DNA of 64,000 nt from Bilabrum cf. latius (Eukaryota): assembly GCA_965178125.1 (NCBI GenBank), contig OZ237753.1, positions 620,001-684,000 of the forward strand. Direction: 5' to 3'. The notes beneath the pieces were generated by a model that worked only from the letters and a program-made list of their open reading frames with translations, had not been told where the DNA came from and searched no databases. A program made the position numbers and the translations under genes. How positions within the stretch are numbered: the first letter of the stretch is position 1; each line of letters opens with the position of its first letter. This document shows, in pieces, positions 1-64,000 of this stretch.

Positions 1-55
1 GTCGCCAAGATGGCCGCCACAAAAGCCACTCGTGCCAAACAGAATTACGGACCAA

Positions 56-1610
56 ATGGCAGCCGTGTTCGTGCCACTGCTTGACAATGAAACTCGTGCC
101 CCGGATGCCATTGCAGGCAAGACTGTCTCGTCTGTGGGCGGTACCAAAGGCTCTGGAGCGCCTCTTGTGCTCGTGACGGGCGCGACGGGCTTTCTCGGTA
201 GCTGGATCGTGCAAACGCTGCTGCATTCGGGATACTGTGTTCGAGGCACGGCCCGTTCGCTAAAAGATGAGAAGGTTGGATTTCTACGCGCACTTCCCTT
301 TGCGTCGGAACGGCTGGAACTCGTGACCGCAGATCTGCTTGACGGCGCATCTGTCTGGGACCTGATCGTTCGCGGCGCGGACTTCGTTCTTCACGTCGCC
401 AGCCCATTCTTCCTCGGCGATGACGAAGACAAGTGAGCAAATGCTTTGAATTCTGAAGCAATCTACGAGTTTGTGGAGCCGAGGGACATCGTACCAGGCA
501 AAAAGCACGACACTTGCACTTGCTCGAGAATCGACGTTGTGCCGGTCGTAACCAACAAAATGAATTCTCCGCGAGGTTGCGACCGCGGGAGTATCGCCGA
601 GATCCCGCACCGGTTTCAGCTTCTTTCCATTGGCGTGCACGCGTGCAAAAAAAAATCAAACGCAAACGAAACGCTAACTTGTAGCTAGTATCTGCCCTTC
701 TCGCAGGTTGATCAAGCCAGCAGTGAACGGCACGAGGTCCGTGCTGCTCGCCGCCAGGAAGGCACGCTCGGTCAAGCGGGTGGTGCTGACTGCGTCCACG
801 GCAACGGTCATGTACGGGCACGGCGACCTCAACGCCAAGCGGTGGGGCCCGGGAGACTTCTCTGACCCCGACGGTCCGGACATCGACGTGTACGCGAAAT
901 CCAAAACGCTGGCCGAGCGAGAGGCCTGGGCCATTGCTCGGGGGGACCAAGGCGAGCACGCCGCGCTGGGCGGGCCTGCCCCCTACACACTCACGACCAT
1001 GCACCCCGGCTTCATCACGGGCCCCGTCCTCGCCAAGCAGGGCACGTTCCAGTCCATGCAGGTGATGCAGCGCATCATGAGCGGCGCGTCGCTGATCCAC
1101 GCGGGCTTCAACTCGATCGATGTGCGGGACGCGGCACTGGCTCACGTGCTCGCTCTTACGGCACCAAAGGCGCCGGGAAAGCGCCTGATCCTCTCCCACA
1201 GCGCCGTGCCCATCGCCGCCATCCAGGACAGGCTGTCTAGGCGATTCAACCCGTTCGGATTCAACGTGTCCACGAGCCAGATCTCCACCTGGGTGCTCGT
1301 GCTCGCCTCGTGCGTCTCGAGGGAGGCGGCTCGGGCGGCGGCCAGGGCAGGTAAGTACCCGCAGCTGGACGCGAGCGAGACCCTGGATATTCTCGGCATG
1401 CGGTTCAGCGACCAGTTGAGCTCCTACGAGGACATGGCCCTGGCTGCCATCGCGCACGGGTACATCGACGATCCGTCCGAGGGCGGGGCGCTGTCCGGGC
1501 CGGTGGCTGGGCTGGCCGTGCCGTTCGTGCCTCCGTTGGCGCGCGGGCGGCTGCCGACAGAGGCTGCGGCGGGCGGGGCTGCGTCTCAATCCGCGGCGCA
1601 CTCCATTTGA
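56..1610 (+). CDS. Extended SDR / NAD(P)-dependent epimerase-dehydratase family (aldehyde reductase / dihydroflavonol-reductase-like); 2 exons (56-432, 707-1610)
   Basis: VLVTGATGFLG Rossmann motif, HVASPF, LIKPAVNGT, RVVLTAS, catalytic YAKSK, IDVRDAALAH. GT..AG intron 433-706 joins exons in frame (DK|LIKP). Ends TGA. Confidence 0.9.
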
Positions 1611-1702
1611 TCCCAGGTGGCTGTGGATCTATCGCGGGCCAAGTCTCGTACGGCTCCGCCTTGCTTGCGTCCATACAATGATGCAGCCCAATACATCCCC
1701 AG

Positions 1703-2055
1703 CTACTAGCTTGCAGGTGCCTCACGTGTCCCCAGTCGCATCTACTAGCTTGCAGATGCCTCACGTGTCCCCAGTCGCATCTACTAGCTTGCAGGTGCCT
1801 CACGTGTCCCCAGTCGCATCTACTAGCTTGCAGGTGCCTCACGTATCCCCAGTCGCATCTACTAGCTTGCAGATGCCTCACGTGTCTCCAGTCGCATCTA
1901 CTAGCTTGCAGATGCCTCACGTGTCCCCAGTCGCATCTACTAGCTTGCAGGTGCCTCACGTATCCCCAGTCGCATCTACTAGCTTGCAGATGCCTCACGT
2001 GTCCCCAGTCGCATCTACTAGCTTGCAGGTGCCTCACGTGTCCCCAGTCGCATCT
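1703..2055. repeat. Minisatellite, 39-bp unit x about 9 (CTACTAGCTTGCAGRTGCCTCACGTRTCCCCAGTCGCAT)
   Basis: Direct tandem copies with period 39 (1703, 1742, ...). No unique spacers. The unit contains the minus-strand stop codon of the adjacent LRR gene. Confidence 0.97.
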
Positions 2056-4250
2056 TTGATGGCATCTTCCAGCAGCCGCACGCACTCTGCATGCTCTCCT
2101 GCCCGCGCGGCCTCCAGTGCCACGGACATCCAGCCCGCGCCCGCCTCCGGCGAAACAGCTCCCGTGCCGCTGCTCGCCCCGGCACCACCACTTCTTCTTC
2201 TTGTCACCGCGTGCGTCACTAGCCTGCCCAGCCTCAGTCGCTTGGCCAGCTCCAGCGGCCTGCCCTCCCTCGCCGCCTGCACCGCGATGGCTGCGTCTCC
2301 GTGACTCCTCCACGCGTGCCTCCACCCCGCGACGGCGGCCTTCCTGACCCGCCCCCTGGCGTCCTGCAGGCGACCCCACCTCTTCGACAGCTTTTCCCAC
2401 CCTGCAACCTCGTTCTACCGCGTAGTTCGGACCAACGTTTCGATCCCCGCGTGCAGCAAGTGGGCGCTGGCGTCCTTCCAGGGATAGGACGATGGCAGCC
2501 GGCTCATCCCGGATGGCAGCGCGTGCTGGGTGCCGGGCATGTAGAGGTCGCCGTCGTCGTCTGCTTCTCGACTGCAAAACACGTGCTTGTCCGGCTCGGC
2601 GCATTCGCACAGGCTGTCCACTAGGATGCACATGCCCTCGAGCAAATCCTCGGACGCGGAAGGACCTCCAAAAAGGCCACCGGCGACGCCCTTGGAACCC
2701 GTGGCGGCTCGTAGTAGTGGCGGTGGACTCGAAAGCACACCCGGGTGAGCACAGGCCGTAGTGGCACCGGCACGGGCACCCGCAACGAGCGCTGCCACCG
2801 CTGCTGCGGACCGCTCGATCTCAGTGAGTAACAGATGTTTGTCTTCTCCTCCCCTTCCTCCATGCACCGTGACATACTGAGCCCACCGCAGCCGGCAAGC
2901 GCACGTCCCTAGGACCCTCCAGTCCAGGCTCGCACCCTCCTCCTCCTCCTCCTCCTCCTCCTCCTCCTCCTCCTCCTCCTCCTCCTCCTCCTCCTCCTCC
3001 TCCTCCTCCTCCTCCTTATTCTCCTCCTTATTCTCGGCAAGCAGGGTCCTCAGCTCCTCGATGCGATCAAATTCCTCGATCCGGGCATACATGCTCTTTG
3101 CCGCACCGGATGTGCCGCCGCTGCTGCCCTCAAGGACCGGCGGTGCCTCTGAGGCCGCACCACGGCCGCGGCCCAACCGACTGGACTCACCCGCGCTCGC
3201 GGGACCTTCACCGCCGTCGCGAAGCCGCACGCGCAGGGCCATGTGGTCGGCAAACACCCAGTCGGACAGGCACAGATTAAACGTGTACACGTTCTTGTTC
3301 AAGTCTAGCGCCGATTGCCCCCCGCTTCCGCCCACGTCCCATTCGTAGACCCCACCACACGTCAGGAACGGGTGGCCGATTTCGCTGATCACCCGAAGGG
3401 CGGGCCCAACAACCCTGCTGTCCTCCACATCCTCTCCAAGAAGCAAAATGTGCTTGAGAGACTTGCACCGAGACGCGGCCCGAACCACTGCCGCGACCGA
3501 GGCTTGGAACGCATCGCTGACTGCCGCAGCCTCTGGCAGGATCGACAGCGCCTAGAGGCAGCAGTTCCCCTCCAGTCCGAATTCCAGAGCATCAACGATG
3601 CGATCACGGTCCCCCGTAGATGTGCTCTCCATGGCTAGCTGGAACGGGTCGCGAAACAGATCCAGCACCCTGAACGTGTCGTTGCCGCGCAGCGCTCGCA
3701 GGAGCTCGACTGCTTCCGGCACACCGATGTGGCAATCTGTTGCTTGCAACTCACACAGCCGGCTCCCAGCGCCCACGATGCGCCGCCAGTCAGAGAGCTG
3801 GCCTGTTTCGGTGAGCGAGAACGCGATGCTTCGCAGGCAACTCGTCGAGTCCTCCAGCACGGCAGCGAGTTCACGCAAAAGGCTTTTATCTCCGTGCATC
3901 GTATGCAGGCACTCGATCGTTTGCTCTGTATTTTCGACGATTTGTTGCAGTATCTCCTCGGAGTGGGGCATGCGCGCTCCTGGACCAAAGCGCAGCGTTC
4001 GGATCCTGCTGGCTTCGCGGACTACCACAAGCGGGGCGTCTGCAACGAACTCGTTCTGGGCATACAATACGTCAAGCACTTCCAAAGCAGTGCATTTCTC
4101 CACGATACGCTGCAGGCAGTCAGACACAGCCTCCTTGGGAACGTCGGAAGGAATATTCCGCAGGCCAAGGCATTGTACAACGCCCCCTCGGCAGCACGCT
4201 TCCAACTCGGATTCCCAACCAGACCACGATAGCTACTGACTCAACAACAT
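2034..4250 (-). CDS. Leucine-rich-repeat (RNI-like) protein with poly-Glu tract and shared C-terminal module; about 738 aa with TAG=Gln
   Basis: ORFs 3552-4205, 2415-3488 and 2034-2282 are one frame joined only by TAG codons; ATG at 4250. LRR-like segments (CTALEVLDV, LCELQATDCHIG, LRGNDTFRVLDL, CKSLKHILL). Ends TGA. Confidence 0.75.
2936..3015 (-). repeat. (GAG)n trinucleotide tract encoding poly-Glu in the LRR gene
   Basis: Uninterrupted TCC repeats on the + strand. Confidence 0.95.
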
Positions 4251-4388
4251 GCACCGTTTCGTAACCTGAGCACTTCGCAAAAAGAGCAAAATGTGGGAGA
4301 CTCCGAGTCCCGGGCCAGCGGCGCCGCACCATCAGGAACCAGCAACATCGCCCCCCCCAAAAAAAAATATCCCGCTCGAAGCCCGAAT

Positions 4389-6989
4389 TTACTGCACGGT
4401 CCAGCCCGTCGTCCCCGGCCCGCCGCTGCAGTGCTGCAGCGTCACCGGCGCGCCCGTCCCGCTCGCGGCGTCCACCGCCGACTCGTCGTACCCCAGGCAC
4501 ATCCCCGGGCACTCGGTCATCTGCAGCTGCTTGGCGCCCGCGTCGTACTTGAAGTGGTCCGCCGTGTGGATCCTCGAGTCGTCGCCCTGGCAGGCGTACA
4601 GGTGGATGGGCTGCCCCGCGTCGCAGATGACGTTCTCCAGGTTGAGGCACAGCCCGTCCGAGGAGCTCTTCACCTGCCCGTGGCCCAGCTTGTCGGTGCC
4701 AATCACCCACGCGTCGCTGGGGGCGTAGCACGACGAGGAGGGCGCGGCGCTCACCATGGCGTTGCCCACCGCCTCGAGGCACACGGCACCGGCACCCCCT
4801 CCCCCAGAGCCGTCCCTCGTGATCTTCTGCGAGCCCGCGGGCATGGGAGGCGGCCACAGGCCGTGGGGGTCCCTGCACTCGTCTGCGCCCTTGCACGACA
4901 TAAAGTTCCTCAGGCGGCCCGCGAGCGCCTCCATCCTGTCCTTGTCTGTGGATCCCGCCACGTTCTGCGTGTTCCAGGGGTCCTTGTCCAGGTCATAGTA
5001 CTCCACGAAGGACTCGTCGTCGTTGTACTGGCAGTAGATGTAGTTGCCGGGAATCGCGTGCGTTCTCGAGTCGCCCGGCGGGGTCATGGAGCGCACGCAG
5101 GCGTACGTGTTGTTGCTGGCGTCGCAGGGGCACTTGCCCCTCTCCCCGCCGCACATGGTCACACCGGGGATGCTCGTCGGGTAGTCGTCGTCGCTAGCAC
5201 CCCCCACGACGATCTGCTGCCAGGCATCGAGCAGCCCCAGGTCCAGCAGCACCTCGTCCAGCTCGTCCATCCCCTCGGAGTGGCCGTCGACCCCGCCCCC
5301 GAAGGCCTCCAGCGCGCCGCCGCCGTACTCCCTGGCCTGCTCTAGCACGCTGGCCTCGTCGTTGCGGCGGTCCAGCCGCAGCTGCAGCGCCATGGCGATC
5401 CGCTCCGCCTGGTCCCCCTCGGTGTCCAGGTGCACGGCGGCGCGGAGCAGGGGCTCGTAGGTGGCGGGGTCGAAGCGGTCCTTCAGCGCCGAGGCGGTGC
5501 CGTTGCCGCTGCCATTCTCCAGAGCGGGGAACTCCCGGGCCCACCGCCTGGCCGCGGCGATGGCCCGGCCCAGCCGGCGCTGCTCCGGAGTGGCGGCGGC
5601 GTCCGCGGGCGGCACGATGGTGGGTCCGCCGTACTCGACTAGCACGTCCGTCCTATAGGCCCAGTCCTGCTCGTTGCCTTGGACGAGGGGAAGCCAGGAC
5701 ATGCCGTCCACCAGCTTGGTGGGGTTGGGGTCCACCCCAAACATGTCCAGGATGGTCGGTGCGAAGTCGATCGAGGAGATGATCTCGTCGCGCTCCTGCC
5801 CCGCGGCGATCCCCGGGCCCCGCACCCAGGTGGGAATCCGCACGTCCGTCTCGTAGGCTTGCCTCTTGTCGAAGGCCTCGCCGAACTCGCCCAGGTGCTG
5901 CCCGTGGTCCGACCCGAAGATCACGTACGTGTCGTTGAGGATCCCCTCGGTCTCGAGCGTGGCGATCACCTCTTGCACCAGGTCGTCCACGCTCTGCAGC
6001 GCCCTCCAGCGGTCGGCGAAGGTTCCGTCCGACACGTAGCTCGCGTAGTGTTCCCCCATGGGAGGGATCTGCCGCATCATCCAGTGCTTGTCCGGGGAGG
6101 GGGCCTTGTTCCACGAGGGCACCCGGGGGGCCGTCACGTTGGGGAACTTGTCGCAGTACTGCGGGGCGCAGACGTTGGGAACGTGGGGCGCGGGGGTGGC
6201 GGCCATGGCCAGAAAGGGGATGCCCTCCCTGGCTGCCTTGGCCGAAGCGCGGATGAACTCGACCGTCTGGTTCTTGACGAGGTCCGTGAAGTAGTCCTTG
6301 TGGTAGTCGGAGCCGTGCGAGACCTTCTGCCCGTTCACGCACTGCTCGTAGTTGTAATAACGACTATTTCCGACCAATCCGTAGAATTTTTTCCAACCCG
6401 GCGGCTTATACGCGCACCCGCCGACGGTAGCGAATCCAAAAGTGTTCAAATATTTGCCGCTATATCCTGCATTAAACCCCCCCGGCAGCTGCCTGCTCGC
6501 CATGGACGCCATGTTGTCCTTCTCGGCGCCCTTCTGGAACGCCGTGCCCCCGCACGAGTTGTCGATGACCCCGTTGTTGGTCATCGTGCGGCCAGTCTGG
6601 ATCGCGGCCCTTGATGGGCAGCAGATCGGGACGTGAATGAAGGAGTTGTTGAACCGGGCCCCCTTGGAGATCAGGTTCGCGTGGGCCTTGGGCATGACCA
6701 CCTCGGTCCCCGCCCCCAGAACTTCATCCCTGCGATGCAATGGCTCCAAACGTATTGGATCGCGTGCATCTTGCGGCTCTGCTACTAATTTAATATCATT
6801 GATGGTTGCAGATCAAGGAAACCAAACATGATTGACCGCTCTGTCGCACAGTTGCAGTACGAATGAATGGCAGACCCGGGACTACTAACGATCTCACATG
6901 TCATCTGTCAGGATAAATACGACATTGGAAGCTGCAGCTGACAGAATGAGTAATAGTCCAGCTGCCACAGAAGCCAATCTGCCGCGCAT
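4389..6989 (-). CDS. Secreted formylglycine-dependent sulfatase, N-acetylglucosamine-6-sulfatase-like, with C-terminal ricin-B/CBM13-like lectin domain; 2 exons (6989-6898, 6729-4389)
   Basis: Signal peptide MRGRLASVAAGLLLILSAAA; NVVFILTDDM|D across GT..AG intron 6897-6730; CCPSR signature, GKYLN, APHVP, SDHG, KRQAYETDVRIP, EYYDLDKDPW; Cys-patterned ricin-like tail. Ends TAA. Confidence 0.92.
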
Positions 6990-8266: not shown

Positions 8267-11200
8267 TCACCTGCCCCCGCTAGCAGCTTCGCCCCCCTTG
8301 CTCACCCGGTAGGTCATCTCGTGCCTCTTGCTGCCCTTGCCCTCGGTCCTCCTCCACCCCGCCGCATCGAACACGGCCCCGATCGTGCGGCGGGCACCTC
8401 CTTTTTCGCCGGCGGCACCCTCCGACGGCGGCACCCCAGCGGCCCCGAACCTCATCTCCAGCCCCTGCGCGAGTCTCCGCTGCACCTTGGCGGCCCTCTT
8501 GTCCTCCTTGAGCGAGCCCAGGTCGCCGTGGGGGGGCAGAGGGGCCCCCTCTTTGGCCACCCTCTCGTAGACCTCCTCGCAACCGGGGGCCAGCAGCTGC
8601 GCCGCGAGCTTCTTGCACACGTGCTTGCGGAACGTCTTGACGCTGTGCGTCCACTTGAGGCGCATGGCCATCCTCAAGCTGGGCAGGGCGCTGCCGCTGC
8701 AAGGGCGAGCGTACAGCAGCACATTCTCGTGCGAGATGGGCTCTTCTTCGGTAGCCTCGGCAGCCCTTCCCGTTGCTGCCCCTGGCCCTGGCCCTGGTTC
8801 TGCACCTGGTGCATTAGCGTCACCCGCCTGGCACGCGAGAGCCTTCACCACGAGCCGTGCGGCAAGCATGCCGCTGCCCACAGCCACCCTTGCGCGGGTT
8901 GCAACGTCTAACACAGCCGCGTCTCCGGCGCCCTTTAACCCGAGTGCCATCCACGTGACGATATCTGGGTCTCTGTCGGTCTAACCAGCCGATCCCCGAG
9001 CTTTCACAGCAAGGTCGATGCCCAGGGCGGCCTCCATGCCGCTTACAATCTGCGCCGCGAGTCGCGCGCCCCGACCTCCGGCGGAAGAGCCAGCCACAGA
9101 TCCCGCTGATTCAGGATCGCTGATGCTTTGAAGTCTCGCCATTGCTTCGCCGAGCTTCTCGACAGACTGCAGGTGCGGCCCCCCGAGACACAAGGCAGAG
9201 CTGACGTCGCCGACTGCCAACGCGTCCAGTATCCGCTGCAGGATGTCCTTCCGCTTCAGCTGCTTTGTGACGAGACACCGCTGCTGCTTTGGCACGCCTC
9301 CTCCGCCGGGCTTGCTAGCCCCAGACTCATTGAACATGCGCACTGCATACGCTGCTGCCTCCCGCAGCTGGCCGTGCGTGGCACTGCCCGGCTCGACGCC
9401 GCCGGCACCCACCAGCTGCACGAGGGCGTGCAAGGACGCAAACCGCCTTACGGCAAGGTTGCTGTGAACAGCAGCCTCGGGGTGAAGCAAGCCGTACAGC
9501 CCCTAGTCCTGGTCGATGGGAGTGGAGATGTGCTTCCACTCTACCGAGGTCGATGGGAGCCGCGCTGAGGATGATGATGATGAAGTCGGGACAGTCACGG
9601 CTTGCTGCAGCAGCACCCCGCGCCTGGCTGAATCCACAAGCACCGCTGTCCTTTGCTCCTCTAACGCAGAGGCGGCTGGCACTGCCTCGCCCTCGCCACT
9701 CCTCCTCTTCTTGGCGGGTGCCGGTACCGCATCCTCGTTCTCGTCTCGCGGACGCTGGGGGGCGGTGGCGCGCTTGCGGCCATGCCGAGCACGACCCCCC
9801 TCAGCGGCTGGGTCCATCGGCACCTAGCCCGCCGAGCCTAGCTGCGACCTCCCTCGACCGCCGGCTGCTGCAGCAGGTGGGGCTGCCCGAGACGCCGGCT
9901 CCTGCAGCAGGAAGGCATGGGAGCCACGGGCGACCACCACTTCGATGTCGACGACGCCATCCGTGCCGTCTGGCACGGCACGGTCTTCGATTTCCTCGCG
10001 GGGAGCTTTGCCTGCCCCACTATTGGCGTCGGGTAGTGATGAAGCTGCCGCTGCGCCGGTACTCGCGGTCGTAGCTTGTCTCCGGTGCAATCCGCGTGCC
10101 TCCCCCTCCCCCTCCTCCTCCTCCTCCTCCTCCTCCTCCTCCTCCTCTTCCTCCTCCTCGATCGCATGGCTGCGCCGCTGCAACGACCTCTTCTGCTTTT
10201 GGCCCCGCGCGAGGATACCTGCGCGGCCGTAATTGCGCTGCATGGCCTCCCTCCCGAGCCGGGTCACGTCCTTGATCGCGTCCTTGCGGATGCCGGCGCC
10301 GCCTGGCTGTGATGGCCCGGCTGCAGCTGGCCCGCCGAGGATCATGCCGTCTGCAACCACGCCGCCAGAGCTAGGAAGCCTCGTCCCATCCGCAGCATGC
10401 CCTATATTTCCCGCCGTTCCAACCCCGAGCGATTCGTTGCCAAGACGAAACTGCTCGCCCTTGCCCTCAACTGCCCGGCCTATCGACCTGATTGACGCAT
10501 TGGTTGCCGCCGCCGCGGGCCCGCCCGCTGAAGAGGACCACCCGCGGGCCGACCGGCTCCGGTGCCGGTCACTACCCTCGTCCTCCTCGTCCTCGACTTC
10601 GTCTTCATCCTCACTTCCCTCTTCGTCACCCCGTGAGAGCAGGAGGGCGGACCCGATCCCCATGTAGTCGCTGGTCGCACCCACACCAGCATCCGCTTCC
10701 GTGCTCATGGGAGCCTGCGAAGCAGATCCGCCAGCTCCACTCTGTGCACAAGCCACCTTCGTCATATGCTGGAGGCTAGCCACCTCGTCCTCGTCCTCAT
10801 CCTCGCTCCCGTCTTGATCTTCATACTCGCTCTCCTCATCTTCGTCCTCATCGACACACTCGCTCTCGTCCTCGTCACGCATGGCGACATGATGTGACTG
10901 CACGTTCCTCCTGAGAGCCTAACCCAGCGGGCTTTCTGGCTTCTTGGACCGGCTCTGGGACGAGCGTCTCCGCTTCCGACCGGATCCTAGGATGCCCCCG
11001 ACTCGGCCCAACCTCGCCCTTGTGGCCGCCCTCTTGGCTTGCAGGCGCTCCTTTGCAGAGATGTCAACGCCTGCTGCGTCTGCACCGGGGTCCCTCGTTG
11101 CCTCGCCGGCGGGCACTTCTTCGCCCGCCGCCGCCCCCGCCCATGCCGCCCCCGCCCATGCCGCCCCCGCGCTGCTGCTGCTGCCACTTGAGGCCTCGCC

Positions 11201-31738: not shown

Positions 31739-32013
31739 CTTTTGATACCTCTGTATAATCAGAATAAGCGCTGCATATGACGTGACATGCATGTGCAACT
31801 CGTTGGCAGTCTAGTATTGCGGTAGCGTGATATTTATTTAATCAGATAAGCGCGAAGCGCAAGATACAGCAAAGCTAGTAAACCTGGATCTCACGGAAGC
31901 TGGCTCCAGAGTATTTGATCGAGAAGTCATATTATCATTGTAGTTCGCGCACATTGCTCTTTGGCCCGGTGCAAGTCGAAGTCTGCCACAACTAGCCACC
32001 TACAGTCAATACG

Positions 32014-52960: not shown

Positions 52961-53088
52961 CCACTTGGGAGAGTGGAGATTTGTAGCGTGATTCGGCGAT
53001 GGTTCGGTACTGCTCGGGAGAGGTTCGTTCTGGGCCTCCGATTGACAAAAATGGGCGAGACTTGCGCAGATGCGTCATCAGCCACGAA

Positions 53089-55785
53089 TCAGAAATCCAT
53101 GTCTTCCTCAACGAGCTCGTCCTCATCGTACGTGGCACCACCCATCGCGCCAGAGCCGCCCATTGCCTGACCGCCAGCCATAGACAAGGACCCGCCACCG
53201 GAGCTAGAACCCCCTGCACCGTGACCCCCACCCGCGCCCGAAGAGGCCCCTGTCCCTCCAAGAGAACCGCCAAACATGCTTGCCATCTCCCCTCCCCTCC
53301 AAAGAGAGCTTATGTCCTTCCTCCCCCCAGCTCCCCCCGACAATCCCCCCCTGCTCCCCCCGAATCCCCCCCCACCACCGAACCCCCCCGATGGCCTCAG
53401 GATCGCGTCCAGCCCCCCACCGCCGGGGCCGTCCTCCAGATAGTCTTCCTCGCTGCTGAGGCCCATCCGCAGGCCACCAGCAGCTGGGCGGTCAGGACTA
53501 GGACCAGCCACCTGTTGGCCCGCTGCAGGCGCAGGTGAAGGTGAAGGTGAAGGTGAAGGAGAAGCCGCGGGTGGCAGTGCCGGAGTGGACACTGGAGAGC
53601 CCATACCGAGCCCACTCCCCACGCCAAGTCCAGCCAGTGGTACGGAGGAGCCGCTTCTACCTGCCTTGGGATCGCCGCGCTGCTGCCCTGCAGCATCCTC
53701 CGAGCTGCCACCCGTCCTGGAGTCCGCCCCATTGGCATGCTCTAGACCCAGCCCCAGCCCGGAAGCACCTCCATCCGCTCTGTCTCCGCCGCCCACAGAC
53801 CCGACCGTTGCTCTGACAGGTGCCCGCGCGGGAGGCAGGTTCGTGGGCAGGGAGTCCGTCTCCCCGGTGGAGGCCCTGCTACCCGACTCGAGCCCGCCCG
53901 TCCGGCCCTTCCGGCTGTCGTGTTGCTCCACTTCCATGACCGCTTGCCGCGCGATCGCTGCAGGGGACATTTCGCCGCCGCCACTGCCACCCACACCATC
54001 GCCCCCTCCCACTGTCGAGCCTCCCGCTTGCTGCCATTGTTTCCCGGGAGCACCACCTGTGCTGGCCGTGGTGGTACGCCCTGCAGCAGCAGCAGCAGGC
54101 GCAGTGGTGGGGGAGTGGGCAGATCTGGGGGAGTCCGCCGCGATGCCTGGCCTTCGCTTCCTGCGACTGTTCCCTCGTCCTCCTCGCCCCTGAACCGGCT
54201 CTATCCTCCCTTCTTTCTGTCCTCTGTCTTCCTCGTCCTCGCCCTAGGATTCCCCCTTGCTCCCCTGCATAAAGCGAGACTAGGGCGAGGAGGAAATGTC
54301 GCCGGTGTCACCCGGCCGTGTGCTCGGCATGGCCACAGATCCATGGGCCTTCAAGTTCGCTGCATCGGGTGAAGGGTGTGATGAGCGCGATGGACCCTCC
54401 CTGCCTTGGCTGCCATATTGGCTGTCACCTACGGCATGTGGTCCTTGTTCCCTGTCTCGACCACGTGGCGGTGGGGTGCCTGATCTGGAGCTGCCAGCAG
54501 CCGTCCCCCCAACGAGACCATCGTGGGAATTCGGTGGCGGTTCCTCCAAGACCACGGCGCGAATATCAGCGCCCCACAGACCTGCCTGCTCAACGGACAC
54601 TTTGATGCCGCGCCCCCCTGCACCGCCGGCAGACACCGTGACAGGGACAGCTCGCTCGCTCTCGCCGGCAATACCAGAAAACGCACGCAACTAGACACGC
54701 TCCGGCGGCACATCCAGCAGCCCCGCCACCTCCCGCACCACGTCACCCACTGAGTCAGTCCGGGTCACCGTCCCGCTGTACCTGCCCCCGGCACCGGGCA
54801 GAGACGCGCGCAGCACCCACACGGGCGGGATCCTAGCCTCGATGCCTTCGTGCCCCAGGGGCCGGACCTCCAGCCCAGGGGCCACCGCGGCGCCCTGCGG
54901 AACCGGCTGCCAGTCGTAGGAGGGGTCGAACTGGATGGCGGCCTTGGAGGGACTTGCCGGCCGGCGGTGGTGGTGTGACGAGTGCGGCAGTGACGGGGCT
55001 GCCGGCGGCACGGCCTCCTGCTGGGCGGATACGCGAGCGGTACGGTCCTTCGGCGCTTGCTCTGACCTCGACTGCATCGCAAATGCGGCGATGGTCTGGT
55101 CCTGCGCGGAAACGAATTGGCATCATGATCGGGAGGGGGTGGGTGATGCGGGAGCATTGTGAGCGAGGAATCGCCCGCTTGCCTTGCCCAGCATGCTGGC
55201 GCTGCCTTCGGGGCGTCGCAGGGGCTGACCACTACATACGTGCCGCGATTTTCTCACCTCTTTCATGCGCCTGAGGGCATCACTTCTGTTCTTGGAAGCC
55301 TCCTCGTCCCGAGCCGCAGCTGCTGCTCCGAGGGCCCTTGCGATCTCCTGCTCGTCTCGGTGCGCCGACTCCGCGGCCCGATTCCGCTCGCGCAGCTGCA
55401 CTCTAGACTCTTCTATCTCAGCTAAGCGAATCAAACGGCGCTGCCGTCGGGCCGCCGTCCACGCTGGAATGCGCTGCTCGACAGCCTTCAAATACGCCTG
55501 CCGGGCTTCGGCTAACTGCCTCGTAGTGCTCGAAACAGCCAACACCGTCTCTTGCAACTTGCTTGCTCGAGCAATGTCATTTAGTATTCTGGCGTTGCGC
55601 TGAGCGGCAAACTCGCATTCTTCAGACAAGGAATTCTGCGCCCTTCGCAACGAGCGCAAGTGCAGCGTCTCAAACTCCTTCATAGTCGCGTTTCGGAGCC
55701 TCATAGATTCTTCCAAGCGCTCTCGCTACAGCGCAACTTGCATTCGCTCGTTGTGCAGCGATTCATATTGCTGTTCAGCAGACAT
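53089..55785 (-). CDS. Coiled-coil N-terminus plus long Gly-rich disordered protein, possibly Kizuna-like centrosomal protein; 2 exons (55785-55258, 55071-53089)
   Basis: MSAEQQYESLHNERMQVAL[TAG]RERLEE...AAQRNARIL...TRQLAEARQAY coiled coil; phase-0 GT..AG intron; downstream ORFs joined by TAG; ends TGA. The family call is by eye only. Confidence 0.65.
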
Positions 55786-56057
55786 GACAAAGCGCAATCA
55801 ACGGCTATTTGCAGAAAACGGGAACTTATGCCTTGCGGTCAATTCTAGACAGCGAAGCGATTCAAAAGAAGGTAAAAATATAGAATGTCTATGATAACTG
55901 TTCCCAATCTCGAGCCAGACAGCTACTGTTGTTGCTTACCCTAGCACTTGCGACTCGACGAACGTTCTAAACAACACCTTACAAATGAAAATCGCAGTGC
56001 GACCAGTGGCCCTGGTGCGACCCCCAACTGGTAAAATCCTGCTGTAAAGAGCAAAGT

Positions 56058-57057
56058 ATGGCGTCCATCACCGAGACAAAGGTCATTGATGAGAAGCTTA
56101 GGGAGTAGCTGACTGCTGACCAGGTAAGTGGGTGCTTAATAGCGCTTCGTCGCCCCGAATGTGTGGAACTGAGGTTCGTCTCGCTGGTTCGACTCGCAGT
56201 CGGTGCACTGGCCACAAGTACGATTCAACGCTTGCTTCAGCCGCAAATCATACATTTCGCTGTTCATCATCCTCTCAATGGTTTGCTACAGCCCAAGGAT
56301 GTACTGTTTGACCCGCTTATACCGAATCGTTGTGCGCGTCGATTGAACCGTTCACACCTGCAGCTTAAGGAGTACGGGACCGTATTCGATGACCTGGATA
56401 CAGACCACAGCAAGTCTATTGATACCAAAGAGGTTAAGAAAGCGCTCGAGCAGAGCGGAATGGTGAGCAAGCCAGGCGATGTAGCTGACTTTCGAAGCTT
56501 CATGGCACGCGTGCGATCCATCCTCGGCTTCATTGAGACGATTCGCTGCCCTTGCGCGCCCCAGCTCCACATGATAATTTGTATGCAAATTTGTGTTTGC
56601 GACTAGTTCTCGTTTGGAACGAGCCGTATTCATCCGTTGCAGTTGTCAACTGTGTTTTTGACCGGATGCAATGTCAAGCTGCATGCTTTCCATTTCATCG
56701 CAGACACCTACGGATGACGAGGTGAAGGAAATGGTGGCCCGCTTCGATGCTGACGGCAACGGGACGCTCGAAAGGGACGAGTGGCTGGAGCTTGCAGCAA
56801 CGATGTTTTTGGGCAAGAGTGAGAGGGAGTTGCTGCAGGAGGCTTTCAAGGTACTGGATAAGGACAACAAGGGTTTCATTTCTGCAGAGGACATCCAGGC
56901 TGTGATAGAGGCGATGCCCACGACACCGAAGATTCCCGATGGCGGGGTCCCAGAGCTCCTGGCTGCCGGTGAATCGGCCAAGGCGGACCAGCTGACCGGG
57001 GAAGAGTTCGAGTCTCTCATCGAAAAGACTGTGCCGCAGCATAAGAGACGCCGGTGA
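56058..57057 (+). CDS. Calmodulin-like EF-hand protein; 3 exons (56058-56123, 56364-56462, 56704-57057)
   Basis: E[TAG]LTADQ|LKEYGTVFDDLDTDHSKSIDTKE, PTDDEVKEMVARFDADGNGTL, LQEAFKVLDKDNKGFISAED; two phase-0 GT..AG introns. Confidence 0.88.
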
Positions 57058-57706: not shown

Positions 57707-60700
57707 TCATGGCTTGAGGCCATCAATTGACACTCGAGGGACTTCGGCGGCAGCAGTCGGTTCCGCACCTGCTGGTTCGAATGCTCGGGACCGAGCGGCA
57801 TTCGTGCCGCTGCTGCCAAGATCAAAAGCGGGCTTCGCCGTAGCATTTATCCCGCTTACAGGTGTTGATTCCCTACGATGATCATCCGGTGAAGCGTCCC
57901 GCCTCCGGCTCGCTCTTACCGTGCGACCGCCTTGAATCTGCTCGAGCGCTCGCATTAAGTCCTTGGCCTGCTGCAGATCGCGCTCCCACTCCTCCGGCTC
58001 TTTAGGCTTACCAGCAGCACCTGTGCTGCCATATGACTGCATCCGCCGCCTTCCAGCTGCAGCTATCCCAGCTCGATCACTTGCCCCGCCCCCGCTGCCC
58101 CTCGCAGCCGAGACGAGCCCGATCTCTGCATCCACGTCCATGCCCAGCCCCCCTGCCCTTTGCAGCACGTCGCGGACTCTGGACTTGCGGTCGTTGTCAC
58201 CCACCTCCTGCTCCTTCCCCGACACTGCATTGCGATGCACCCCCGCAGAGCTGGGATACTCGTCCAGCCGCCTCAGCATGCCCCTCTCCTGATCCTCGAT
58301 CCTCGAGACTCGCCCAGCCATGCCGTCCAGCTCGCCCCTCACCTCTCTGAGCCTCTGCCGCACGGCTTCCTCCCTCTCAGCCGCCTCTAGAGCCGCTGTG
58401 GGAGTGCCCATCTGGGTGTCCCTCGACCGGAGCTAGTGCCTCAGCTCGGGGGATGGGACTGGGTCATTGTCAGACTAGCACTGCGCTGTGCCCCTCGAGA
58501 CTGTGTGGTCCGGCTCGCGGGCAATGGCCGAAGGTACGGCGGGGCCTAGAATCGATGGCGCGATCCTGCTGTGGCTTCGGCGGGATTGTGCCTCTGGTTT
58601 CCCTGCATCGGTGGGGATCGACCGGGCGCCCTATTCACCAGGGTGCACATGGGATTGACCACCACCTGTTCCGCTCGGTGCTCCGCTGAGCCTCGGGGAC
58701 GCTGGCACAGTCATCCTGTCCAGCTCGCTCTCGTCCAAGATGTCACCCAGGAGCAACACGTCGCTGTCGTCCACAGCACCGTTCGAATCCTCCGAAGGGC
58801 CAGCGACCGGTGTGCCTATCCATCCGCCAGCAGCCCCAGGCCCGACCCCTGCGGGTGAGACGAGGCCAGCACTGCCAACCGACGCGCTCGGTCTGTGCCC
58901 TTGCCGCGGCGATGAGAAATGCTAGAGAGCCTAAGGCACGGTACTAGATATAGGCAGCCCCTCAGCAGAGATTCGAACGGACACGCCCCTCTTCTCGCCC
59001 TGCACACCGCGTGAGCCAGCTGTGCGCAGCTGGGTTTCGCTGGCGGTGAAAACAGCCTCGTGCTCATCAGCAGCAGGGACAGTAGATGCCCCCGCTAGCT
59101 TCGAGACGCTACTACCATCCTGCCTCCGGGCATCACCCCTAAGTTCCTGCGGGACAGGCATCCGCAGCAGCCGAAGAGATCCCAAAGCACCGCCGGCTCC
59201 ATCACCTGCGCGAGAATCCGGCTGGTGACTTGCCGCTGCTGCTCGCCCCAGCGACTCCCGCTCCTGACCAGTGCTAGGATTGAGAGCACGGAAAGTGCTA
59301 GGCGCGCTTGTACCTCGATGAAATGGCCTGGTGACGCGCGTCCTGCCGGGTGTGGTTCCTGATTGTGTCGAGGAGTCGGTCGTATCGACATCCACCAGGG
59401 ATCTCCTTCTATCTGCCCCACTATGCTTCCGGGCTTGCGGTAGTGCTCGACGCGCGGCAGCAGGCATCGTCTGCAATGGGGCCACTTTCCATCCGTCTAC
59501 AATGGCCCCGGGGTGCTGCTGTGCTGCAGTCCGCACCTCAGCTGCTAGCTTGCTCGAAGCCGCCAAGGTGGCACTAAGAGGACCAGCGATCTTTGAGGGA
59601 GCTTCTCGCTCTGTTCGTATCCGGCTACGAGACGATGCTCGGCTATCATGGGGTGGAACGTGCGCATTGGTCGAGCCGGCAGTCGGTTTCTTGCCCCGCA
59701 AGAGTTGTTGGCCCCGTTGAATCCTCTCCTGCAGCGAGCGCAGATGCTGGGTCTGGCCATGAGCACCAGAGTCTCGGAAGCTGGCAGCGGATCGTCCGTG
59801 GGCCAATGACTCGCGCAATGCTTCACGACTTGTTCCAGGTTCAATTGAGCTGATCGGCAGTTGGCGCGTCGGCACAGGGTCAAAGCCATCGCCGCCCGTC
59901 TAGTCCTGGCTAGAATCCAACGGGTCGGTCTGCATCGCTGTCTCTGTCTCTTGCCTCTGCGATACCGTCTCGAGTTCATCTCTCCTTCCGTCGCAGCCCG
60001 GCATCGATGCAGAGAGATCCAAGACAGTCCGCGGGGACGTCGCCGCTCCCTCGGTTGGCTGTGCCTGCTCCGGCTGGGCGTCTGCAACCTGCCTCGCGGC
60101 GGGCGGCACGGGCGGCACGTCGGCAGCACTCTCTGAGTTGTGATCCACAGAGAATCCCACCGATTTCACGCGGCACTCCCGCTGGGCCTTGAACGACGAT
60201 GAGCCAGGAGACGTGGTGGGCGGAGCAGACACGAGGTCTGAGTCCAGCAGCAGCATCGCACTCTAGTCAGGGGACTTCCCCAGGGCTGGTGACAACGATG
60301 TTGTCTCCTTGGCACCAGCGGTCTCTTCAGTGGGCAGTTGCACCTCTTCAGAAGACTTCAAAGCGAAGTGATCGCCGCTATCGCTAGCTATTTGGGCTGC
60401 TTGCTCTGCTGACAGGCTCTCAGCTGGGCTTTTCGCGAGAGCGGCACGAGGCAAAGGCTCGATGCTTGCAGAGGCTTCCGCGCAAGACTCTGCAGCAAAC
60501 CCAGTTCTACTTGAGGCGGCAAGATTCCCTTTCTTTTGTCGGGGTACAAGCTTCAGATCGTCTTCGTCGTCTTCTTCTCCAGAAACATGGCCTCCATCCG
60601 CCCCTGCCACTGACAGCCGATCCTCTAGCGTCTTGCCCCATGACTCGTGCTCTTGCTGCAACTTTCGAATGGCTTCAAGGGAAGTTTTCTCGCTGCTTGA

Positions 60701-63700
60701 CGTGCCTAGGTCATGCCTTGCAGCGTCCGCACCAGATGATGGACGCATCCCATCGGCCTCGAGCTCTGTGCCAGGGGCGGCACCGTCAGCGAGCCTGCCG
60801 GCAGCAGTCATTGTCTCATGGTACTGCAATGTTGCCAACTCGATGTCCTTGGCTTCTTCTGTGGATAGACCTGCACGGATATCGCTGCTATCGACATCCA
60901 GCTATGGAGCACCCAGCCATGATGCCACTGTGCGCAGCTGCTTGGGTGCGTCAGCCGACAGGGCAGGATGCTCCGAGCCCGCAGTTGCAACCGCATCATC
61001 CTCTCCATCGCCATCGCCCTGGCCGCCACCAAGGCTTGCAATCACATCTGCCATCTCGTCGACGTCCTAGGCCATGGTGGTGGGAGCCAAAACGTGCATG
61101 GCATGGCGCTTCGCTGCCGCCTCGGCAGCGGCGCGATCCCTGGCTCGTTTCCTGGCGATCCTCTCCGTCGCTGAGTCGAGATCAAAATTGTCGTCACCTT
61201 CAAGTCGGTGCCTTGCGGCTTGAGGCTCGCCGCGTGCCTATGCCTTGCGCGGTTCCATCGCTCTACCAGCACCGTCTCGAAGTGCACCCTCACGCTCGTT
61301 GCGTCGCCCAGCCACGAGGTCCCTCACCACCTCTCGCACCGGGCGGCCACTTGAAGGGGACGGCCCCCGTTCCGCCAGGGGCACAGGCTCCCCTGTATCT
61401 GCATCTACCCCATGCGCCTCGCCCTCGATATCTTCAGGCACGTCTGGAAGCACAGATCGCGGCGATGACGCGGAGGCCGCGCCCAGCCCGAAACCCTTAA
61501 CTGGTGCACCCGTGGGCGCAGGCATGCTTGACCGCATTCCGGATCGCCCCGAGGAGGAGCGTCCCGGTGATGATGCGCTGCCCGTAGACGATGAAGACGA
61601 ACTCCTGCGTTGGCGCGACTTCCTGACGGCCGGGTTCGCGTCAGACTCCCACCACGGGTGGAACAGGATGCCCTCCTAGAGGCGGCTGCAAGCAGTGGTT
61701 GCGACATCGTGGGCGAGGCCGCAGGGAACGAACGGGGCCAAGGACCGAGCAGCTTCTGGGTTGCCAAGCACGGCTTCCAGCTCGCGCTCGCTCAGCTCGT
61801 ACCCGAAGCGGTTCATGCGCGCCATTGACCACATCAGCAGAATCCAGCTGCTCTTGGCCAGGTCTCGGGGAGCAGTTGTTTGGGAAGATCCGGGGCTGTT
61901 CCGGACTGAGGCGTGCTCGTGATCGGCACCCCCTGGGCTTCTCAGCTGCAGCAGACTCGCAGGTGGGCACACAAGACCTACGATCCCTGCATCTGTCGAT
62001 TCCATGCTTCTAGAGTCCAGCGTCCCGGTTGCATCAGCTCGAGCCTGCCGATGCAGCTCGTCGAGCCTCGGTGCGAAAGCAGCTGCTGTTCCATACTCGG
62101 CTGCAGCGGCCCCCGGCTAACTCTGCGCCCAGGTTGACTGCGATGATGCCGCGCTCGCTACAGCAAGCACCCAGGCATGTGGACTCTCGATTTGGAGATC
62201 GGCGTCTGGATCTGCCACCGCGGCAGCTAAGAAGCAGGCCGCGGCAGGCAGCCCACACGCAGCTAGAGCCTATGCCAAGGCCCTCGAAAAAGTAAGCACA
62301 TTAGAACTGATACCTCCTTGCTCCCTGGCTTGTGCCCTAGCGACCCGGGAGCACGCTCGGATGCTCTCGGTGATAACGAAGCGCGCTGCCTGCTTGGACC
62401 GGACGGACCCACCGCGCGCCCTGAGGACTGCCGCGGCTGCTCGAATGATTGCGTTCATATCCTTGCCTTCTTGTGTCCCGTCTATTGAGAGGATGGCCTA
62501 TACGGCCGCGAGGCGACCATGCGATACACTGCGAGCAATCAGGCCTAGCAGTCGCCCAGCACAACCCATGATCTGCTGTCGTTCAAGCCTGGAGACCCAC
62601 TCTGGCTCTGTGGGTGGGCCAAGCACCTGCAGTTCGGAGCCGCTAGAGGAGGCTGCCGCATTGCCAGAATCCCGGGGCGATGGGTGTTTCGCCAGTGTCA
62701 TGGCAGAAATGAGTCCTTCAAACACGTGCTTTCCGCGAGTGCCGATGCTCCTTGCGCACACAAACAGAACGTCGAGGGCAACGCACAAGCGACGGAAGGC
62801 CGCAATGCGCTGCTAGTCCATCGACTGGGACTCTCCGCCTCTGGCTAGCGCTCTGAGGATGGTGCTGGTCGTTGAGAGGTACTTGGGGTCCACCGAGCAT
62901 CCTCGGCGTCGGGCAGCTGCGATGATCTCTCGCATCGCTGCGTCCAATGCGACGGCAAGACTGCCAGCAGCCTAGTTGCCAGCAGAGCAGGCTGCCCGGT
63001 TCCTGTGTCGGGCACGACTCCGGCCGCACGCCGCCACAGCAAACAACCGCAGCCAATGCGAAGTAGCAGCCAGGGTATCTCCCTCACTAGACGTGGCAAT
63101 TTCACCCGCTGCCTGGGACAAGGACGCATCCACAGCCTATAGAATTCTGCCGCAATCCGCTTGAGCATCGTTTTTGGCCTGCAGTCGCGCGTGCTAGCTT
63201 GAGAACCCGCCTGCTTCGAGCAAGAAGGGCGTGCCCGCCACGAGGCACCCAGCCGCTTCCACAGCAAGCATCACATCCTATGAATAGGGTGCGAGGGATT
63301 GCATTGCCCGCTCCGCTTCATCGACCGCCTCGCGGAGCACATCCATGCGGAGGTCGTGATCGCGACGGCCCACGCAGGCGCCTGCCACCGACAGGATCGC
63401 AAACACGTCCGATCTGTTCCCCTGTTGCACGAGCTGTTTCAGCCGCGCCGTAAAGGCGGCCTGCATTGCCGCTTTCGGAAGCCTGGGCCTGAAGTACTTC
63501 GCTATGGCAATCGTAGCGCTTGCGTGTTGCAAAGCGATGCCAACTGACGGCACAAGCGAATCGACATCCACATGGCGCCCGTCCAGCTGCAGTTTCCAGG
63601 TAGCAGGCATCACGCCACTACCACTGTCGAAATCCTAGCCAACTCCTGCTTGTGCTTGCCCAATAGACAGCTAAGCAATATAAGCCCTCTCGTCAGACTG

Positions 63701-64000
63701 TACATCGTGCTGTGGCACAGCCGATACCCTCGCTCCAGCAAACATGGCCGCGTACGTAGCCACGGTGCTGCACCGGGCACCTAGCAGCAACTCAACACCA
63801 AGTGCAGGCGTCACCTCTGGGACAGCGAGAACTCCCCGTTCGGCCGTCTCCCTCTCAATTGTCGCGAACCGAACGACATCACTGTGGCGCACAGGCCTAC
63901 CTGCCACACCAGTCATCACGCCAGCAATCGAAGGCGGGTCTAGACAAGGGGCCTCATGGGGCAGCACGACGTGCATAATGCCATCTTGATACTTGCCTTT
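57707..64000 (-). CDS. Very large hypothetical protein (>2090 aa, 5' end outside the window): helical N-terminal part and long low-complexity C-terminal part
   Basis: One frame, open from the window edge to TGA 57707, with more than 20 TAGs and no TAA/TGA found when the inter-ORF segments were translated by hand. Confidence 0.75.

What the first reader, a model, noticed from the sequence alone, without database searches (positions are those of the whole stretch)
1..64000. Non-standard nuclear genetic code: UAG is a sense codon while UAA and UGA remain stops
SEEN: in about 15 genes on both strands, consecutive ORFs lie in one frame and are broken only by TAG. These include conserved genes (CENP-C, Miro, calmodulin-like, FMC1-like), with TAGs inside domains. 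Every well-supported gene end is TGA (16 cases) or TAA (sulfatase 4389, Miro 18672, CENP-C 24816); none is TAG. KNOWN: UAA and UAG are usually reassigned together in eukaryotes. UAG-only reassignment is rare; reported cases include the fornicate Iotanema spirale (Gln), a rhizarian (Leu) and some phyllopharyngean ciliates. UAG=Gln corresponds to NCBI table 15. INFERENCE: this GC-rich genome with 90-275 nt introns and aerobic-mitochondrion genes fits neither ciliates nor fornicates, so it may be an independent, possibly undescribed origin. The gene style is reminiscent of bicosoecid stramenopiles, but this is unverified. The code implies a tRNA with a CUA anticodon and an eRF1 blind to UAG elsewhere in the genome.
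Basis: partly seen in the sequence, partly recalled or inferred. Interest (0 to 1): 0.97.

Follow-up and report, generated by a model that had tools for sequence, protein, structure and literature searches.

The report
UAG read as glutamine, nuclear genome
This GC-rich eukaryote, like at least one related organism, reads the stop codon TAG as glutamine and still ends its genes at TGA or TAA, a rare kind of genetic-code change.

Summary
I examined 19 frames. Fourteen carry in-frame TAGs (97 in 15,785 codons). A fifteenth gene, Miro-like, has 2 in an upstream exon. All 19 end at TGA (16) or TAA (3) and none at TAG.

Pfam ankyrin and TPR matches run across TAGs. Contigs of three runs skip seven GT..AG introns that the DNA run keeps. 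Their listed pieces cover 22 in-frame TAGs with no differing letter, so the TAGs are neither spliced out nor edited.

The codon means glutamine:
- In fragments 82-85% identical from close relatives, 3 of 4 window TAG positions align with Q and one with H.
- Two such fragments end where the window has CAG.
- A metagenome contig from a more distant relative holds the same gene with 6 in-frame TAGs. One sits in a column that is Q in 146 of 147 homologues.

TAA is not sense. The code therefore matches NCBI table 15.

The lineage is unplaced. The only named homologue is from Cafeteria, and the tree does not resolve the link. Nine searches of the held papers found no report for such an organism. The tRNA and eRF1 could not be examined.

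The parts
57707..64000 (-). Large gene running off the window's end. The frame is 2096 codons with 21 in-frame TAGs and ends at TGA 57707-57709.
   Evidence: Fragments P0155-P0159 are 82-85% identical. Window TAG codons 109, 774 and 977 align with Q, and codon 920 with H. P0159 ends just before window TAG codon 121. P0155 and P0156 end where the window has CAG at codon 993.
31882..37401 (+). CLU-domain plus TPR gene. The frame has 19 in-frame TAGs (18 after the first Met at 32014) and ends at TGA.
   Evidence: Pfam CLU and TPR_12 matches; the best TPR_12 stretch, 1217-1286, spans TAG codons 1226 and 1272. Eight TAGs lie under X5 pieces 34806-36060 and 36230-37381 with 0 other letters. P0160 (78% identical) ends where the window has CAG.
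38744..40765 (-). Ankyrin-repeat gene 1. It has 4 in-frame TAGs, 3 of them inside the repeats, and ends at TGA.
   Evidence: Pfam Ank_2 E 8e-67; the best stretch, 345-441, spans TAG codon 407.
44705..47413 (-). Ankyrin-repeat gene 2. It has 4 in-frame TAGs and ends at TGA.
   Evidence: Pfam Ank_2 E 3e-110. TAG codons are 109, 621, 755 and 785.
50066..53074 (-). APP1-like phosphatidate phosphatase gene. It has 8 in-frame TAGs and ends at TGA. Its GDSGQ motif uses CAG.
   Evidence: Pfam APP1_cat. 984 homologues were found. The orthologue on contig L001 has TAG at the GDSGQ glutamine.
24926..28682 (-). Last exon of a gene read as 1251 codons. It has 8 in-frame TAGs and ends at TGA 24926-24928. 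An RNA-type contig ends at 24904.
   Evidence: X5 piece 24904-28001 has 0 other letters and covers 6 of the TAGs. Intron 28683-28777 is skipped in X5.
23071..24818 (+). Last exon of the CENP-C-like gene. It has 4 in-frame TAGs (23082, 23178, 23262, 23700) and ends at TAA 24816-24818.
   Evidence: Pfam CENP-C_C E 1e-7. X5 piece 23071-24900 has 0 other letters. Introns 22652-22757, about 22803-22899 and 22985-23070 are skipped in X5, X6 and X7.
18672..22273 (-). Miro-like GTPase gene: three RNA-supported exons (22273-21852, 21744-21625, 21401-18672). It has 2 in-frame TAGs at 22089 and 22002 and ends at TAA 18672-18674.
   Evidence: One X5 contig joins the three exons with 0 other letters. X5 and X7 contigs both begin at 18624. 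The frame is kept across the joints (exons of 120 and 2730 nt). Identity rests on PDB Miro1 E 0.088 and atlas Miro clusters at 0.95.
28694..31738 (+). TLDc-domain gene. The frame has 12 TAGs (5 after position 29900) and ends at TGA.
   Evidence: Pfam TLD E 7e-7. TAGs 30839 and 31547 lie under X5 piece 30836-31728.
8267..11629 (-). Frame of 1120 codons with 4 in-frame TAGs, ending at TGA. Part of it is duplicated in inverted orientation at 12103-14073, with TAGs at the same places.
2034..4331 (-). Frame of 765 codons with 3 in-frame TAGs, ending at TGA.
   Evidence: No Pfam family was found.
53089..55797 (-). Two frames: 53089-55122 (677 codons, 3 TAGs) and the CEP15-like 55123-55797 (224 codons, 1 TAG). 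Both end at TGA.
55989..56717 (+). Weak EF-hand frame with 2 TAGs, ending at TGA.
   Evidence: Pfam EF-hand_6 E 6e-4, below the curated cut-off.
4389..6812 (-). Sulfatase gene with no TAG, ending at TAA. It is one of five TAG-free frames; the three with the highest third-position GC in the table are all in this group.
   Evidence: Pfam Sulfatase E 4e-39. GC3 is 0.90. The five TAG-free frames hold 2743 codons, where 20.4 TAGs would be expected at the rate of the other frames.
47631..48806 (+). PhyH dioxygenase gene with no TAG, ending at TGA.
   Evidence: Pfam PhyH E 4e-33.

Best explanation
The organism's nuclear genes are translated with UAG as a glutamine codon, while UGA (mostly) and UAA terminate. 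This is the code of NCBI table 15.

Shown: UAG is in frame in expressed, spliced, conserved genes. It corresponds to Gln in orthologues. The trait is shared with close relatives and with a more distant relative.

Inferred: a tRNA-Gln with anticodon CUA decodes UAG, and eRF1 has lost or weakened UAG recognition. UAG codons arise and disappear by CAG<->TAG transitions. They persist mainly in weakly codon-biased genes.
For: (1) Coding across TAG. Pfam Ank and TPR_12 matches span TAG codons.

(2) Expression without removal. X5, X6 and X7 contigs skip seven introns of 86-223 nt with GT..AG ends, and none of these joints is seen in X1. The listed X5 pieces with 0 other letters cover 22 in-frame TAGs. 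No differing letter is listed at any TAG.

(3) Meaning.
- In fragments 82-85% identical, window TAG positions 109, 774 and 977 align with Q and 920 with H. That is 3 of 4 positions, or 5 of 7 sequence observations.
- Q makes up 3.7% of the 1330 aligned residues.
- The window's CAG aligns with Q in 21 of 22 cases and CAA in 14 of 19.

(4) Reciprocal evidence. The relatives' predicted proteins stop exactly at window CAG codons (big gene 993, CLU gene 815) and at window TAG codon 121.

(5) Contig L001 from a relative (49-72% identical) has one frame open for 727 codons, with 6 TAGs and no TAA or TGA. Its TAG in FLGDSG[X]AD falls in a column that is Q in 146 of 147 homologues and E in 1.

(6) Termination. 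The 19 frames end at TGA (16) or TAA (3). RNA-type contigs end 22-82 nt after the TGA at 24926 and the TAAs at 18672 and 24816.

(7) TAA-sense reading does not extend frames.
Against: - The more distant homologue P0008/L001 has E at two window TAG positions (157, 201) and T at a third. P0161 (64% identical) has E at one, in a poorly aligned stretch.
- L001's TAG at codon 266 lies in a column that is D in 87 of 144 homologues; the window has G there.
- Pfam scores cannot separate Q from E or K. Summing PF00023 for both ankyrin genes with TPR_12 gives Q 631.2, E 631.2, K 631.5, S 625.0, L 623.8.
- No tRNA(CUA), eRF1 or peptide evidence was available.
- With only 19 gene ends, occasional use of UAG as a terminator cannot be excluded. 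The CLU-TPR frame has two TAGs within its last 10 codons.
- The RNA nature of X5-X7 is inferred from their spliced contigs. The run records only guess at it, and for X5 the tool says 'probably DNA'.
Confidence: 0.88

Rival explanations
1. Ambiguous code. UAG is read as Gln inside genes but still terminates some genes, depending on context, as in codes without dedicated stops.
For: Only 19 gene ends were seen. The CLU-TPR frame has TAGs 9 and 5 codons before its TGA, and the X5 contig stops at 37381, so its true end is open. TAG is absent from the five TAG-free frames, including the three with the highest GC3, as if its decoding were costly.
Against: None of the 19 frames needs TAG as its end. 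The three ends with RNA-type contig ends are TGA or TAA. If TAG ended about a quarter of genes, an assumed figure that no call measured, about 5 of 19 would be expected.
Confidence: 0.07
2. UAG is sense but encodes another residue: Glu, His or Lys, or Ser or Leu as in other UAG-only codes.
For: E stands at window TAG positions 157 and 201 in the 51%-identical P0008. H stands at position 920 in two close fragments. Pfam scores for E and K equal those for Q.
Against: Q stands at 3 of 4 positions in the closest orthologues. The relative's TAG sits in a column that is Q in 146 of 147 homologues. The relatives' frames break at window CAG codons. S and L score 6-7 bits lower than Q in Pfam, and W and Y score lowest for TPR_10 and TPR_NPHP3, with W also lowest for TPR_12. 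The neighbours of TAG codons do not resemble those of S or E.
Confidence: 0.03
3. The TAGs are not translated. They would be assembly errors, pseudogene lesions, tiny introns or edited sites.
For: TAG-only runs can arise without coding: in the 39-bp tandem repeat at 1703-2055 and in frames antisense to GC3-rich genes.
Against: One DNA-type run and three spliced RNA-type runs were laid, and no differing letter is listed at any TAG. There are 97 TAGs but no TAA, TGA or frameshift across domains with Pfam matches. The same pattern appears in an independent metagenome contig.
Confidence: 0.02

Closest known systems
Iotanema spirale (Fornicata): UAG=Gln with UAA and UGA as stops (PMC5304391 and PMC11687900, passages read)
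   Same: Same code variant in a non-ciliate nuclear genome. The meanings of UAG and UAA are decoupled. The expected mechanism is a tRNA(CUA) plus a change in the eRF1 N-domain (T32G in the GTS motif in Iotanema).
   Different: The window comes from a GC-rich genome (0.55-0.66). It carries Miro-like, CLU and oxygen-dependent PhyH genes, which fits an aerobe rather than an anaerobic fornicate. The eRF1 and tRNA were not seen here.
Phyllopharyngean ciliates and Protocruzia tuzeti: UAG=Gln only (PMC11687900, passages read); NCBI table 15 'Blepharisma nuclei'
   Same: Same codon table: TAG=Q, with TAA and TGA as stops.
   Different: A 64-kb stretch with about 20 genes, GC 0.55-0.66 and introns of 86-223 nt does not look like a ciliate macronuclear genome. 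That judgement rests on my own knowledge of ciliate genomes.
Scotinosphaera sp. (green alga): UAG=Ser with TAA and TGA as stops (PMC8271138, passages read)
   Same: A UAG-only reassignment in a non-ciliate.
   Different: The residue here is Gln, not Ser. Reading TAG as Ser scores about 6 bits lower in Pfam.
Uncultured rhizarian exLh: UAG=Leu (PMC5304391, passages read)
   Same: A UAG-only reassignment.
   Different: Leu fits poorly: PF00023 scores are 3.3 and 6.5 bits below Q, and no orthologue shows L at a TAG position.
Ciliate, dasycladacean and Hexamita code 6 (UAR=Gln)
   Same: UAG=Gln.
   Different: TAA is not sense here. Reading TAA through leaves the frames unchanged, and TAA ends 3 genes, 2 of them with RNA-type contig ends just downstream.

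Membership tests
UAG=Gln nuclear code with UAA and UGA stops (NCBI table 15 type) | In-frame UAG inside bona fide, expressed coding sequence | tested here: met
   Pfam Ank and TPR matches span TAGs. 22 in-frame TAGs lie under spliced-run contig pieces with 0 other letters.
UAG=Gln nuclear code with UAA and UGA stops (NCBI table 15 type) | UAG aligns with conserved glutamine in homologues | tested here: met
   3 of 4 window TAG positions align with Q in 82-85% identical fragments, the fourth with H. The relative's TAG sits in a column that is Q in 146 of 147 homologues. More distant homologues show E or T at 3 to 4 positions.
UAG=Gln nuclear code with UAA and UGA stops (NCBI table 15 type) | UAA and UGA still terminate | tested here: met
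   16 TGA and 3 TAA ends among 19 frames. Contigs of the spliced runs end 22-82 nt after three of them. Reading TAA through does not extend frames.
UAG=Gln nuclear code with UAA and UGA stops (NCBI table 15 type) | UAG is not used as a terminator | tested here: inconclusive
   0 of 19 ends. The sample is small and the end of the CLU-TPR gene is ambiguous.
UAG=Gln nuclear code with UAA and UGA stops (NCBI table 15 type) | Cognate tRNA-Gln with anticodon CUA | not testable with these tools
   There is no tRNA gene in the window and no genome is held.
UAG=Gln nuclear code with UAA and UGA stops (NCBI table 15 type) | eRF1 N-domain altered for UAG recognition | not testable with these tools
   eRF1 is not in the window and no genome is held.
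UAR=Gln code (table 6) | UAA is also a sense codon | tested here: not met
UAG=Ser (Scotinosphaera type) | UAG aligns with conserved serine | tested here: not met
   No S appears at any TAG position in the fragments 64% or more identical. Reading TAG as S scores lower in Pfam. One S was seen, at position 201 in the 44%-identical Cafeteria protein.
Bicosoecid stramenopile (organism placement) | Orthologues group with bicosoecid sequences | tested here: inconclusive
   In one gene only, the sole named homologue is from Cafeteria. The window plus L001 fall in a 15-row set with it (97*), but the branching inside that set is open (quick tree; the careful search did not finish).

The most novel reading that the evidence does not exclude
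An independent origin of UAG-to-Gln reassignment, with UAA and UGA kept as stops, in a previously unreported clade of GC-rich, aerobic eukaryotes. The clade may be stramenopiles near bicosoecids. It spans at least two species-level lineages and a more distant metagenomic relative. Genome and transcriptome data already exist, which would make it a good system to study how eRF1 and tRNA-Gln decouple UAG from UAA.
Probability: 0.5. Interest if true: 0.82.

Novelty: new member of a known kind. Interest (0 to 1): 0.72.

Why it matters
Nuclear codes in which UAG and UAA differ in meaning are rare. Outside ciliates, the passages I read name three lineages: Iotanema, the rhizarian exLh and Scotinosphaera (PMC11687900).

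A further lineage, GC-rich and apparently aerobic, with relatives that share the trait, would add an independent data point on how stop codons are captured. It would also allow comparison of eRF1 and tRNA-Gln across a graded series of relatives.

There is a practical side too. Gene prediction with the standard code breaks these genes into pieces. The database fragments P0155-P0161 show this. Annotation of this assembly and of related metagenome bins needs table 15.

Tried and rejected
- Codon-usage scoring either side of each stop failed. It was trained on the three strongly biased TAG-free genes, and the TAG-bearing genes have weak bias.
- Pfam score comparison under ten meanings of TAG could not separate Q, E, K and R.
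- Neighbour-residue statistics gave only weak hints against S and E.
- Columns of the 150 APP1-like homologues at the window's own TAG positions were too variable to use.
- The full-length CLU-TPR search at 'near' lengths found only remote TPR proteins.
- There was no tRNA and no Rfam match in the window.
- No whole genome is held, so no genome-wide code inference, tRNA(CUA) search or eRF1 search was possible.
- The look-up of sequencing runs listed no holder on record as RNA. The RNA nature of X5-X7 rests on their spliced contigs.
- The protein atlas gave no useful taxonomy.
- The second cluster look-up gave no organism names.
- The careful tree search did not finish, so only the quick tree was used.
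- Supplements of the papers were not seen. The eRF1 alignment of PMC5304391 is in a supplement.
- I considered and rejected Pyl. It is known from UAG in archaea and bacteria (PMC5304391, passage), and the orthologues here show Gln.
Full report
**What the window is.** The window is GC-rich (0.55-0.66) and looks like nuclear DNA of a eukaryote. It holds about 20 genes on both strands, with short introns and proteins rich in low-complexity stretches. It holds no tRNA gene and no Rfam match.

**Check of the observation.** Under the standard stops, the longest stop-free frames are 949, 807 and 685 aa. With TAG read through they become 2097, 1839, 1283, 1189, 1153, 1120, 1014 and 1002 aa. With TAA read through they barely change (978, 826, 685). 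Reading TGA through opens many middle-sized frames (949, 830, 810), as expected for the commonest stop trinucleotide.

I tabulated 19 frames:
- 14 hold in-frame TAGs, 97 in 15,785 codons. The Miro-like gene adds 2 in an upstream exon.
- 16 end at TGA and 3 at TAA (sulfatase 4389, Miro-like 18672, CENP-C 24816). None ends at TAG.
- In the other five frames of the same stretches the counts are TGA 1078, TAG 570 and TAA 229. TAG is thus about 30% of off-frame stops, yet it is the only one inside these frames.

The zero TAA/TGA counts are by construction, because the frames were defined that way. The evidence is the length of the frames and what lies in them. Runs of consecutive in-frame TAGs reach 21, 19, 18, 13, 13, 12, 9, 8 and 8. 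In 1000 label shuffles the mean maximum was 7.3 and the largest 15.

Four of those nine runs are not coding. Two fall in or beside a 39-bp tandem repeat at 1703-2055, and two are antisense to the sulfatase and Ank2 genes. Run length alone therefore proves nothing.

**Are the TAGs in real coding sequence?** Yes. Pfam finds the following:
- Ankyrin repeats in 38744-40765 (E 8e-67) and 44705-47413 (E 3e-110).
- CLU and TPR_12 in 31882-37401.
- CENP-C_C, TLDc, APP1_cat, sulfatase and PhyH in other frames.

The best-scoring ankyrin stretch (345-441) spans TAG codon 407. The best TPR_12 stretch (1217-1286) spans TAG codons 1226 and 1272.

The 'Miro' label is weaker. Pfam finds nothing for it. The N-terminal exon hits human Miro1 in the PDB at E 0.088. 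The language-model atlas puts the last exon beside Miro clusters at 0.95.

**Are the TAGs removed or changed in RNA?** No.
- I laid four runs on 18001-38000. Run X1 behaves as DNA, with none of the intron joints.
- Contigs of X5, X6 and X7 skip seven introns of 86-223 nt with GT..AG ends. These runs therefore hold spliced transcripts, although their records only guess at RNA.
- One X5 contig joins three Miro-like exons with no differing letter. The exon lengths (120 and 2730 nt) keep the frame, and that frame holds TAGs at 22089 and 22002.
- In all, 22 in-frame TAGs lie under the listed X5 pieces, each piece with 0 other letters. The table of differing letters lists none at a TAG.
- The contigs of the spliced runs end at 18624, 48 nt after the Miro-like TAA. 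They end at 24900, 82 nt after the CENP-C TAA. They end at 24904, 22 nt after the TGA of the convergent gene. The DNA contig runs on through all three places. This supports TAA and TGA as true ends.

**Which amino acid?** Profile scoring could not tell. With TAG read as each of ten residues, TPR_12 gave Q 117.4, E 113.9, K 117.6, S 112.7, L 119.8, Y 113.6, W 110.6, R 119.4, D 113.9 and N 116.0. PF00023 for the two ankyrin genes gave Q 199.4/314.4, E 201.4/315.9, K 198.9/315.0, S 199.6/312.7 and L 196.1/307.9. Q, E and K tie; S and L are 6-7 bits lower.

Orthologues decided it.
- A search for shorter proteins with the 2096-codon gene found five fragments 82-85% identical. The window's TAG codons 109, 774 and 977 align with Q, and codon 920 with H.
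- Over all fragments at least 78% identical there are 1330 aligned pairs. Window CAG aligns with Q in 21 of 22 cases, CAA in 14 of 19, and TAG in 5 of 7. Q makes up 3.7% of the relatives' residues.
- The relatives' predicted proteins end just where the window has TAG (codon 121) or CAG (codon 993 of the big gene, codon 815 of the CLU gene). This is what a standard-code gene caller would produce if the relatives carry TAG there. It fits CAG<->TAG transitions as silent changes.

A more distant relative gives the cleanest single site.
- The APP1-like gene has 984 homologues. Its best N-terminal hit lies on a 2305-nt metagenome contig, L001.
- In L001 one frame is open for 727 codons, with 6 TAGs and no TAA or TGA. 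No other frame there exceeds 148 codons. It is 49-72% identical to the window's gene.
- Its TAG in FLGDSG[X]AD falls in a column that is Q in 146 of 147 homologues and E in 1. The window has CAG there.

**Evidence against Gln**, for the record:
- The same relative has E at window TAG positions 157 and 201, and T at 139.
- P0161 (64% identical) has E at one position, in a poorly aligned stretch.
- L001's TAG at codon 266 sits in a column that is D in 87 of 144 homologues; the window has G there.

At 50-64% identity, exchanges between Q and E are common, so I weigh these less than the close orthologues and the near-invariant column.

**Further pattern.** Five frames have no TAG: sulfatase, the Miro-like last exon, PhyH, an epimerase-like frame and a 326-codon frame. 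Together they hold 2743 codons. At the rate of the other frames, 20.4 TAGs would be expected (Poisson P 1.4e-9). The three frames with the highest third-position GC (0.85-0.90) are all in this group. TAG thus behaves as a rare codon that is avoided in strongly biased genes. It makes up 97 of 717 codons (13.5%) if counted with CAG and CAA.

**Mechanism.**
- Shown: UAG is decoded as Gln in this organism and in relatives, and UGA and UAA end genes.
- Inferred from what is established for such codes (PMC5304391, passages read): a tRNA with anticodon CUA can read UAG without reading UAA, and eRF1's N-domain must lose or weaken its recognition of UAG. In Iotanema this is a T32G change in the GTS motif.

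Neither molecule could be examined here.

**Comparison with what is known.** The passages I read in PMC11687900 list these UAG-only nuclear reassignments: rhizarian exLh (Leu), Iotanema (Gln), Scotinosphaera (Ser), Protocruzia tuzeti and several phyllopharyngean ciliates (Gln or Leu). PMC8271138 describes the Scotinosphaera case.

The present code is the table-15 type. It is the same as Iotanema's and as those ciliates'.

The genome does not look like either group. It is GC-rich, with introns of 86-223 nt and with Miro-like, CLU and PhyH genes.

**Placement.** The only named homologue I could find is the APP1-like protein of Cafeteria. In a quick tree of 38 rows, the window and L001 form a clade (100*). 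That clade lies inside a 15-row set that also holds Cafeteria (97*), and the branching within the set is open. The bicosoecid idea remains a lead from one gene.

**Novelty.** Nine searches of the held library found no report of such a code in a stramenopile, a bicosoecid or any GC-rich non-ciliate. I read only listings and passages. Papers outside the library and supplements were not seen. The runs date from 2025, so a source paper may exist.

**Verdict.** The finding is real and well supported: a known kind of code variant in what appears to be a new lineage.

Noticed in passing
window 1703-2055: A tandem repeat of a 39-bp unit, 9 copies, 96% matches. The unit contains CTACTAG and gives long TAG-only runs in two frames without any coding evidence.
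   Followed up: partly
window 6469-7060 / 17623-18213, 8838-10406 / 12231-13820, 11364-11868 / 15203-15707: Nested inverted duplications, 95-100% complementary. They include a copy of the sulfatase N-terminus (17870-18300) and of part of the 1120-codon gene, with TAGs at the same places. This is either a large palindromic duplication or an assembly artefact. No laid contig was examined there.
   Followed up: partly
window 38801-39100, 41220-41519, 44771-45070: A 300-nt segment encoding the shared C-terminal domain of the two ankyrin genes has a third copy at 41220-41519. That copy is 98% identical to the Ank2 copy and 70% to the Ank1 copy. All carry the TAG-containing RRAHRAH[TAG]DAARVF context where it was read.
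   Followed up: no
window 32826-32924 and 37484-37927: Contig depth here is tens to a hundred times that of the flanks in all four runs, with many variant letters, loose ends and a 'goes back' joint. These look like dispersed repeats of the genome lying between genes.
   Followed up: no
window 24900-24904: The contigs of the spliced runs for two convergent genes end within 4 nt of each other, with 3' untranslated regions of only 82 and 22 nt. The genome is very compact at this point.
   Followed up: partly
cluster of P0009: A protein labelled Symbiodinium sp. KB8 sits in the same 90% cluster as Cafeteria proteins. This suggests Cafeteria contamination in that assembly.
   Followed up: no
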